From Escherichia coli (GTDB lineage: Bacteria > Pseudomonadota > Gammaproteobacteria > Enterobacterales > Enterobacteriaceae): a DNA stretch of 64,000 nt. Positions within the stretch are counted from its first letter, which is position 1. The number at the start of each line of letters is the position of its first letter. This document shows positions 63,534 through 63,571 of the stretch, piece after piece. The translations under genes and the position numbers were made by a program. The notes beneath the pieces were generated by a model. It saw nothing but the letters and a program-made list of their open reading frames with translations, was not told the DNA's origin and made no database searches. Location: the NCBI RefSeq assembly GCF_003334315.1, contig NZ_QOWR01000014.1; one strand, 5' to 3'.

Positions 63534-63571
63534 GCTAAGGTTGAAGGGGCGTTCCAGCCCCTTCAACCTTA
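63534..63571. repeat. Perfect 16-bp inverted repeat (hairpin, 6-nt loop) about 40 bp from the IS1 end
   Basis: ctaaggttgaaggggc-gttcca-gccccttcaaccttag read directly; no clear U-tract on either strand. Confidence 0.6.

What the first reader, a model, noticed from the sequence alone, without database searches (positions are those of the whole stretch)
63534..63571. Perfect 16-bp hairpin 40 bp from the IS1 junction
A 16-bp perfect inverted repeat with a 6-nt loop is far longer than expected by chance in 64 kb and is not REP-like in sequence. It lacks a convincing U-tract, so it may be an RNA-stability element or a protein-binding palindrome rather than a simple terminator. Its proximity to the IS1 end raises the question of whether it belongs to the chromosome or influenced insertion-site choice.
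Basis: seen in the sequence. Interest (0 to 1): 0.3.

Follow-up and report, generated by a model that had tools for sequence, protein, structure and literature searches.

The report
Fold-back scar ending an ISEc13 relic
The perfect hairpin is real, but it is a one-off scar: the left arm is the last surviving piece of a dead ISEc13 transposase gene and the right arm is an inverted copy of it, an old chromosomal feature of about 38% of E. coli (K-12 included) that is unrelated to the nearby IS1.

Summary
The palindrome exists, slightly larger than reported: 17-nt perfect arms (63534-63550 / 63557-63573) and a 6-nt loop. It is the longest perfect inverted repeat in the window and beyond every shuffle. 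It lies in the rluA-djlA spacer, between a relic of the IS50-like element ISEc13 (+ strand, 63201 to about 63555) and the 3' end of the T3SS effector gene espY1 (yabQ/yabP in K-12; - strand). Alignment with an intact ISEc13 shows about 89% homology running through the left arm and loop, Tnp codons 51-57, and stopping there. The right arm is not ISEc13 sequence; it is the exact reverse complement of the left arm. I read it as a snap-back (fold-back or template-switch) inverted duplication made when the IS was truncated. It occurs exactly once in each of 2,072 of 5,426 complete E. coli genomes, all without this IS1, so it is chromosomal, locus-specific and older than the IS1 insertion, which no other genome shares. 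Any present role is passive and unproven: a -37 kcal/mol stem-loop between convergent transcription units, terminator-like only on the + strand. K-12 Term-seq tables list no 3' end there, and the arms are not significantly more conserved than the flanks. Ordinary; low interest.

The parts
63534..63550 (+). Left arm of the palindrome, GCTAAGGTTGAAGGGGC. It is homologous to ISEc13 transposase codons 51-56 (AQVEGA in ISEc13, AKVEGA here).
   Evidence: The arm is continuous with about 310 nt of roughly 89% homology to intact ISEc13.
63551..63556 (.). Loop GTTCCA. ISEc13 homology ends here, at about 63555, or at 63559 if a 1-nt gap and a shared GCC are allowed.
   Evidence: all listed ISEc13 hits stop at query position 316, which is window 63555. 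The O145:H28 lineage carries one extra C here.
63557..63573 (+). Right arm GCCCCTTCAACCTTAGC. It is the exact reverse complement of the left arm and is absent from ISEc13, which continues GCCTGATGCGTAACCCG.
63201..63555 (+). Relic of the IS50-like insertion sequence ISEc13: the first ~355 of 1,564 bp. It contains an outside-end-like terminus CTGCCTCTTGTACATAAAT (63201-63219) and a frameshifted N-terminal transposase pseudogene (63379-63557 as annotated by RefSeq).
63216..63244 (+). Hairpin carried by the IS, plus a T-run, just inside the ISEc13 left end. It lies 50 nt after the rluA stop and is probably the de facto rluA terminator in genomes carrying the island.
   Evidence: ISEc13 has the same stem followed by TTTGTTATTT; the relic has TTTTTTGTTT.
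63574..63610 (-). 3' end of espY1 (yabQ in K-12). The espY1 stop TGA is at 63586..63584, and the stop of the K-12 yabQ frame, TAA, at 63576..63574. The gene is cut by IS1 after 63610.
63611..64000 (-). Right end of an IS1 copy that runs off the window, inserted into yabQ/espY1. It is not part of the hairpin feature.
62507..63166 (+). rluA, the conserved left border of the island. In island-free genomes, homology to the window stops exactly at its stop codon.

Best explanation
The palindrome is a rearrangement scar at the truncated end of an ISEc13 (IS50-like, IS4-family) relic. Shown: an ISEc13-like element once sat 34 bp downstream of rluA, and only its first ~355 bp survive. The surviving sequence ends in Tnp codons 51-57 (left arm plus loop) and is followed immediately by a 17-nt exact reverse-complement copy of the last 17 nt. 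That copy is joined 10 nt downstream of the stop codon of the convergent espY1 gene. Inferred: a DNA 3' end inside the transposase gene, at a break or a stalled fork, folded back on itself. The ISEc13 sequence GC-GTACC-GC(C) offers 2-3 nt of self-complementarity for this. The end was extended by copying its own strand for about 14-17 nt and was then joined to the DNA that now carries espY1, with the rest of the IS lost. This is snap-back or template-switch synthesis, as in quasipalindrome-templated mutation and tandem-inversion-duplication junctions. The event happened once, before the island spread through about 38% of E. coli, and long before the private IS1 insertion in this strain. Today the palindrome most likely acts only passively. 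It forms a very stable stem-loop in any transcript crossing it, between convergent units. On the + strand its UUAUUCU tail could stop read-through from rluA or the relic into antisense espY1. On the espY1 strand it has no U-tract and could at most be a 3'-exonuclease barrier. No function is demonstrated.
For: The arms are 17/17 complementary, well beyond chance. BLAST against plasmids finds about 280 ISEc13 copies at roughly 89% identity; every listed alignment covers window 63242-63555 and stops in the loop. Alignments with an intact ISEc13 show the IS continuing GCCTGATGCGTAACCCG (Tnp ...VEGAY|RLMRNP) where the window has the inverted copy (...VEGAF|QPLQP). The relic begins with the ISEc13 outside-end terminus. 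In strain Z1323CEC0014 the relic has been converted to ISEc13-like sequence up to a point inside the left arm. This creates one stem mismatch, which is what is expected if only the left arm is homologous to the IS. The palindrome is single-copy and locus-specific. It occurs once in each of 2,072 of 5,426 E. coli genomes. Among 100,044 species representatives it was found only in one contig that matches the E. coli island at 97%. So neither ISEc13 copies nor other loci carry it. Island-free genomes have REP elements between rluA and djlA and no hairpin. The IS1 junction is shared by 0 of 5,426 genomes.
Against: No ancestral allele was found with a longer ISEc13 remnant or without the right arm, so the fold-back step is inferred from the end product only. 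The exact breakpoint is ambiguous (63555, or 63559 with a 1-nt gap), so the priming microhomology is not certain. A deletion between two inverted ISEc13 copies could leave the same structure. The arms are identical in at least 2,057 of 2,072 genomes, and the only common variant is a loop insertion. That is also what selection for pairing would give, although the small-sample test is not significant (0 variable sites in 34 arm positions against 2.4 expected, P about 0.09, and a 68-nt stretch nearby is equally invariant).
Confidence: 0.8

Rival explanations
1. The hairpin is, or has become, a functional transcript 3'-end element for espY1 and/or an insulator between the convergent espY1 and rluA/relic transcription units. 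It would act as a bidirectional terminator or a 3'-exonuclease barrier, maintained by selection. This concerns present function and is compatible with the scar origin.
For: It starts 10 nt after the espY1 stop and ends the relic on the other strand. The RNA stem is -37 kcal/mol on both strands. The + strand passes a terminator-like scan with tail TTATTCTGGC. The arms are unchanged in at least 2,057 of 2,072 genomes, and the frequent variant is a loop insertion that keeps the pairing.
Against: There is no U-tract on the espY1-sense strand. The complete curated Term-seq 3'-end table for K-12 (three conditions) has no 3' end at 59,270-59,329 and no entry for yabQ or yabP. On the espY1-sense strand, Direct RNA-seq gives 280 reads in the 800 nt beyond the hairpin (59,316-60,116), followed by a Rho-dependent drop at 60,116. 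So transcripts exist past the hairpin on that strand, although they might start downstream of it. Conservation of the arms is not significantly above the flanks. rluA already has a canonical hairpin plus T-run at 63216-63244.
Confidence: 0.3
2. The palindrome is what remains of two ISEc13 copies in inverted orientation (for example a composite transposon around espY1) after deletions, rather than a snap-back copy.
For: It would also give one arm continuous with the IS and a second arm that is its reverse complement. IS50-type elements do form inverted composite transposons (general knowledge of Tn5).
Against: The second copy would have to be trimmed on both sides to exactly the 17 nt facing the breakpoint of the first copy. 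Beyond the right arm there is no similarity to the reverse complement of the sequence upstream of the left arm (TTATTCTGG against AGTAGCGTG). The two arms are 100% identical to each other while differing from ISEc13 at 2 of 17 positions, which suggests one was copied from the other.
Confidence: 0.08
3. It is a member of a dispersed palindromic repeat family (REP/BIME, a MITE end, or a recombinase or Y1-transposase hairpin site), or a palindromic operator for a DNA-binding protein.
For: Only its perfect symmetry.
Against: It is present exactly once in each genome that has it and never elsewhere. A scan of 100,044 species representatives found only the E. coli locus. There is no Rfam match. The real REP elements of this spacer are found in the island-free allele and look different. 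The left arm is inherited transposase coding sequence.
Confidence: 0.02
4. It was created by, or attracted, the adjacent IS1 insertion.
For: Only its proximity, 37 nt from the IS1 end.
Against: An identical hairpin is present in 2,017 complete genomes, and none of the 5,426 genomes searched shares this IS1 junction. K-12 and O157 read straight through the IS1 target site.
Confidence: 0.01

Closest known systems
Snap-back / template-switch inverted duplications (quasipalindrome-templated mutations; junctions of tandem inversion duplications in Salmonella/E. coli; templated insertions of alternative end-joining)
   Same: One arm is continuous with the parental sequence. The other arm is its exact reverse complement, starting a few nucleotides after a short self-complementary motif (GC...GC(C)). 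The parental sequence beyond the junction is lost. The comparison with these mechanisms rests on my general knowledge of that literature, not on a tool result.
   Different: Here only the fixed end product is seen, in a natural population, at the truncation point of an insertion sequence. No precursor allele or selection regime is known, and the second junction, to the espY1 3' flank, has no recognisable homology.
ISEc13 / IS50 (IS4 family) insertion sequences
   Same: The relic starts with the ISEc13 outside-end-like terminus. It keeps the IS-borne hairpin and the first 57 Tnp codons at about 89% DNA identity.
   Different: Only 355 of 1,564 bp remain, the ORF is frameshifted, and there is no right end. 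The palindrome's right arm is not part of any ISEc13 copy found.
Rho-independent (intrinsic) and bidirectional terminators between convergent genes
   Same: It is a stable G+C-containing stem-loop placed between convergent transcription units, 10 nt after a stop codon, with a partial T-run on one side.
   Different: The 17-bp stem is much longer than is usual. The espY1 side has no U-tract. No mapped 3' end appears in the K-12 tables examined. The sequence derives from a coding region by duplication.
REP/BIME elements
   Same: They are also palindromic, and they occupy the same rluA-djlA spacer in island-free E. coli.
   Different: REP elements are dispersed in hundreds of copies with a consensus. 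This palindrome is single-copy with an unrelated sequence.

Membership tests
Fold-back (snap-back) inverted-duplication junction | One arm is collinear with an identifiable parental sequence | tested here: met
   The left arm and loop continue about 310 nt of roughly 89% homology to ISEc13.
Fold-back (snap-back) inverted-duplication junction | The other arm is the reverse complement of the first and is absent from the parental sequence at that position | tested here: met
   17/17 complementary. ISEc13 reads GCCTGATGCGTAACCCG instead. No ISEc13 copy in E. coli genomes carries the 40-mer.
Fold-back (snap-back) inverted-duplication junction | Short self-complementary microhomology at the turn that could prime the copy | tested here: inconclusive
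   GC/GC, or GGC/GCC with a 1-nt gap, is shared between the ISEc13 homology and the right arm. The exact breakpoint is ambiguous.
Fold-back (snap-back) inverted-duplication junction | A precursor allele without the duplication exists | tested here: not met
   None was found. All island alleles sampled carry the palindrome. Other species' representative genomes lack it, and the top 120 EspY1 homologues carry only E. coli or Shigella source names where any name is given. The protein-based genome scan failed.
Intrinsic (Rho-independent) terminator | Stable G+C-containing stem-loop at the end of a transcription unit | tested here: met
   -37 kcal/mol. It lies 10 nt after the espY1 stop on the - strand and at the end of the tnp relic on the + strand.
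Intrinsic (Rho-independent) terminator | U-tract immediately 3' of the stem | tested here: inconclusive
   The + strand has UUAUUCU (5 T in 8, a lenient pass). The - strand has AGUAGCGU (a fail).
Intrinsic (Rho-independent) terminator | RNA 3' ends map just after the stem in vivo | tested here: not met
   The complete curated Term-seq table for K-12 MG1655 in PMC7815308 has no 3' end at 59,27x-59,32x and no yabQ or yabP entry. The test is weak: yabPQ is a pseudogene in K-12 and may be barely expressed.
REP/BIME or other dispersed palindromic repeat | Many copies per genome sharing a consensus | tested here: not met
   Exactly one place per genome in 2,072 genomes, and one hit among 100,044 species representatives.
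ISEc13 (IS50-like) insertion sequence | Both terminal inverted repeats and an intact DDE transposase | tested here: not met
   Only the left terminus and 57 frameshifted codons remain, so it is a relic and not a functional member.
IS1 insertion product (target duplication or terminal sequence) | The motif is present only where IS1 is present | tested here: not met
   The motif is present in genomes without the IS1, and the junction is found in 0 of 5,426 genomes.
Any Rfam RNA family | Covariance-model match | tested here: not met
   Only two chance-level hits elsewhere in 63000-64000 (E = 0.2-0.5, far below gathering scores), and none at the hairpin.

The most novel reading that the evidence does not exclude
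The scar has been co-opted. In espY1-expressing pathogens the 17-bp stem would define and stabilise the 3' end of the effector mRNA, after Rho-dependent termination further downstream and exonucleolytic trimming. It would also block antisense read-through from the rluA/relic side. On this reading a chance snap-back repair event created a working bidirectional 3'-end element for a horizontally acquired T3SS effector gene. It would also be a dated natural example of microhomology-primed fold-back repair in E. coli.
Probability: 0.2. Interest if true: 0.35.

Novelty: new member of a known kind. Interest (0 to 1): 0.15.

Why it matters
The significance is modest. The analysis explains an eye-catching perfect palindrome in the K-12 and O157 chromosomes (K-12 coordinates 59,280-59,319) as the product of IS decay, not as a designed RNA or protein site. 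It shows that such a scar can persist unchanged across a large part of a species. It also documents how the espY1 (yabPQ) islet is bounded: rluA, then an ISEc13 relic, the palindrome, espY1 and djlA, replacing the REP-filled spacer of other strains. If the stem were shown to set the espY1 mRNA 3' end, it would be a small but clean case of a regulatory element born from repair of a broken transposase gene.

Tried and rejected
- **Dispersed repeat or REP:** rejected, because there is one copy per genome and only the E. coli locus was found among 100,044 species representatives.
- **IS1-related origin or targeting:** rejected.
- **Known RNA family:** no Rfam match.
- **Native espY1 terminator as the origin:** rejected, because the left arm is ISEc13 coding sequence.
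- **Plasmid-borne ancestor of the espY1-ISEc13 arrangement:** tblastn of EspY1 against plasmids gave only chromosome-derived records.
- **Orthologues in other species that might show a pre-duplication allele:** the protein-based scan of genome contigs timed out. The protein database search returned 157 hits; the top 120 listed are all EspY1-like proteins, and every source name given is E. coli or Shigella.
- **Published 3'-end evidence:**
  - The Adams et al. 2021 tables have no 3' end at the hairpin.
  - Three other papers had no supplementary tables held.
  - Literature searches for yabQ/yabP, ISEc13 and EspY1 found nothing about this palindrome.
- **Test for purifying selection on the arms:** not significant with the eight alleles available.
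- **Hairpin intermediate of IS4-family transposition as the cause:** considered and set aside. Those hairpins form at the IS termini, whereas this palindrome is centred about 350 nt inside the element. This rests on general knowledge of Tn5/Tn10 chemistry and was not tested.

Full report
**Observation.** Reading the window and a repeat search confirm a perfect inverted repeat. It is one base-pair longer per arm than reported: 63534-63550 GCTAAGGTTGAAGGGGC, loop GTTCCA, 63557-63573 GCCCCTTCAACCTTAGC. It is the longest perfect short-loop palindrome in the 64-kb window. The next longest has 13-nt arms and is an ordinary terminator. In 100 Markov shuffles the longest arm was 8-13 nt. The 40-mer is unique in the window even with three mismatches allowed. 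As RNA, either strand folds at about -37 kcal/mol, with z = -7.4 and -5.7. No Rfam family matches it.

**Genomic setting.** The + strand carries rapA and rluA, whose stop is at 63166. RefSeq annotation of identical sequence in K-12 and O157:H7 places two features after rluA. The first is a frameshifted 'IS4/Tn5 family transposase DNA-binding' pseudogene on the + strand (window 63379-63557). The second is yabQ-yabP in K-12, or the intact T3SS effector gene espY1 in O157, on the - strand. The espY1 stop codon is at 63586..63584, 10 nt from the right arm. The K-12 yabQ frame stops at 63576..63574, abutting the arm. In K-12 coordinates the hairpin is 59,280-59,319 (H221). From 63611 onward the window is IS1. 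The right terminus is GGTAATGAC..., and the ORF at 63626-63919 matches NCBIfam transpos_IS1 at E = 2e-23. K-12 and O157 read straight through the insertion point.

**Chromosomal or IS1-associated, unique or repeated?**
- A 70-nt query centred on the hairpin finds exactly one place in each of 2,072 of 5,426 complete E. coli genomes and never a second place.
- The 40-mer alone is identical in 2,017 genomes.
- A further 40 genomes, O145:H28 and a few others, carry one extra C in the loop with both arms intact.
- About 13 genomes have unidentified central variants.
- A query across the IS1 junction is covered in 0 of 5,426 genomes, so the IS1 insertion is private to the source strain.
- A degenerate two-arm pattern scanned over 100,044 species-representative genomes hit a single 1.6-kb contig. 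That contig is 97% identical to the O157 rluA-espY1 locus and sits in a 'Collinsella' MAG, presumably mis-binned E. coli DNA.

The hairpin is therefore chromosomal, locus-specific, restricted to E. coli, and older than the IS1 insertion.

**The other 62% of genomes.** In these genomes, homology to the window ends exactly at the rluA stop codon. The 115-150 bp spacer to djlA is filled with REP-type elements. The island that replaces this spacer consists of 34 bp of unknown origin, the transposase relic, the palindrome, espY1 and about 295 bp upstream of espY1.

**What the arms are.** A reconstructed peptide and the DNA of 63240-63610 both hit ISEc13, an IS4-family element, on about 280 plasmids at roughly 89% DNA identity. 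Every listed alignment covers window 63242-63555 and stops in the hairpin loop.

An intact copy on E. fergusonii plasmid pEF03 is 1,564 bp long. It has a Tn5 outside-end-like left terminus CTGTCTCTTATACACAAGT, an IS50 inside-end-like right terminus, and a 9-bp target duplication with one mismatch. Aligned with the window, the relic starts with that terminus at 63201 (CTGCCTCTTGTACATAAAT). It then follows ISEc13 through the IS-borne hairpin, the transposase start and 57 codons.

At the hairpin the two sequences read:
- ISEc13: GCTCAGGTTGAAGGTGCGTACC|GCCTGATGCGTAACCCG (Tnp ...AQVEGAY|RLMRNP)
- Window: GCTAAGGTTGAAGGGGCGTTCC|AGCCCCTTCAACCTTAGC (...AKVEGAF|QPLQP)

. So the left arm and loop are inherited transposase coding sequence. 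The right arm is not ISEc13 sequence; it is the exact reverse complement of the left arm.

Strain Z1323CEC0014 gives independent support. Its relic has been converted to ISEc13-like sequence up to a point inside the left arm (GCTCAGG...), while the right arm is unchanged. This produces a stem mismatch, as expected if only the left arm has a homologue in the IS.

**Mechanism of origin (inferred).** A structure of parental sequence, a short turn, an exact inverted copy of the last 17 nt, and then unrelated DNA is the signature of a snap-back or template-switch event. A 3' end within the transposase gene would fold back on a 2-3 nt self-complementary motif (GC...GC(C), present in ISEc13). It would be extended on its own strand and then joined to other DNA, with loss of the remaining 1.2 kb of the IS. 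This matches what is known, from general knowledge and not tested here, of quasipalindrome-templated mutation, tandem-inversion-duplication junctions and templated insertions in alternative end-joining.

I could not find a precursor allele, so the order of events is inferred. The exact breakpoint is ambiguous (63555, or 63559 with a 1-nt gap). A deletion between two inverted ISEc13 copies is a less parsimonious alternative, because the right arm shows no further inverted IS homology beyond 17 nt. IS4-family transposition hairpins form at the element termini, not 350 nt inside, so they do not explain it.

**Present function.**
- On the + strand the stem is followed by TTATTCTGGC. This passes a lenient terminator scan and could stop read-through from rluA or the relic into antisense espY1.
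- rluA already has a canonical hairpin plus T-run at 63216-63244, itself contributed by the ISEc13 left end.
- On the espY1-sense strand there is no U-tract.
- The complete curated Term-seq table for K-12 (Adams et al. 2021, PMC7815308, three conditions) contains no 3' end at 59,27x-59,32x and no yabQ or yabP entry.
- The same paper's Rho table lists a termination region at 60,116 (+), antisense to rluA, with 280 reads in the 800 nt upstream (59,316-60,116). So RNA exists beyond the hairpin on that strand in K-12, although it may start downstream of it.
- Among eight alleles, the relic left of the hairpin has 25 variable sites in 367 nt, the 37 nt to its right have 3, and the 34 arm positions have none. 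With 2.4 expected, P is about 0.09, and a nearby 68-nt stretch is equally invariant.

There is thus no positive evidence for selection or function. A passive role as a stem-loop between convergent units remains possible, at about 0.3.

**Comparison and verdict.** The feature is real and non-random, but it is not a REP element, not an Rfam RNA, not IS1-related and not a convincing intrinsic terminator. It is best filed as a new instance of a known kind of event: an inverted-duplication scar at the truncation point of an insertion-sequence relic. The relic itself is already annotated by PGAP as a pseudogene. I found no description of the palindrome in the literature searched. Interest is low.

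Noticed in passing
window 63216-63244 (+): The hairpin AAATCCCCGAGTCCGGGGATTT plus T-run, 50 nt after the rluA stop, looks like rluA's terminator. It actually lies inside the ISEc13 left end. Intact ISEc13 has the same stem followed by TTTGTTATTT, while the relic has TTTTTTGTTT, a better U-tract. Island-free strains have REP elements after rluA instead.
   Followed up: partly
window 63611-64000 (-), IS1: The IS1 copy interrupts yabQ/espY1 26 nt (espY1 frame) or 36 nt (K-12 yabQ frame) upstream of the stop codon. This junction is found in none of 5,426 complete E. coli genomes, so the source strain carries a private insertion. After its first ~110 nt the IS1 looks roughly 10% diverged from the IS1A sequence as I recall it from memory (not tested).
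   Followed up: partly
L011 (NZ_CP148426.1, strain Z1323CEC0014) 266-439: In this strain the ISEc13 relic has been converted to ISEc13-like sequence. The frameshifts are gone and the SNPs match ISEc13. The tract ends inside the left arm of the palindrome, presumably through recombination with an intact ISEc13 copy.
   Followed up: partly
L013 (JAIJJM010000692.1, 'Collinsella sp.' MAG contig): This 1.6-kb contig is 97% identical to the E. coli O157 rluA-espY1-djlA locus. It is almost certainly E. coli DNA mis-binned into an actinobacterial MAG.
   Followed up: yes
K-12 coordinate 60,116 (+), corresponding to about window 62737 (-), antisense to rluA: Adams et al. 2021 list a Rho-dependent termination region here. 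There is therefore appreciable transcription antisense to the ISEc13 relic and rluA in K-12, and its promoter is unknown.
   Followed up: no
L002 3040-3110 (espY1 pentapeptide-repeat region); not in the window because of IS1: EspY1 proteins in the database range from 189 to 286 aa and from 74 to 92% identity. In O157 the gene contains tandem GGTAGCACCGTCCA-type repeats, so I presume (not checked) that much of the length variation comes from repeat copy number. Some sources name these proteins 'UDP pyrophosphate phosphatase', which looks like a misannotation.
   Followed up: no
window 63167-63200: The 34 bp between the rluA stop and the ISEc13 terminus (CCTTTCCTGTACGTTTATACCCTCATCCTAAGGG) has no counterpart in island-free genomes. 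Its origin is unknown, and it is presumably part of the DNA that arrived with the IS.
   Followed up: no
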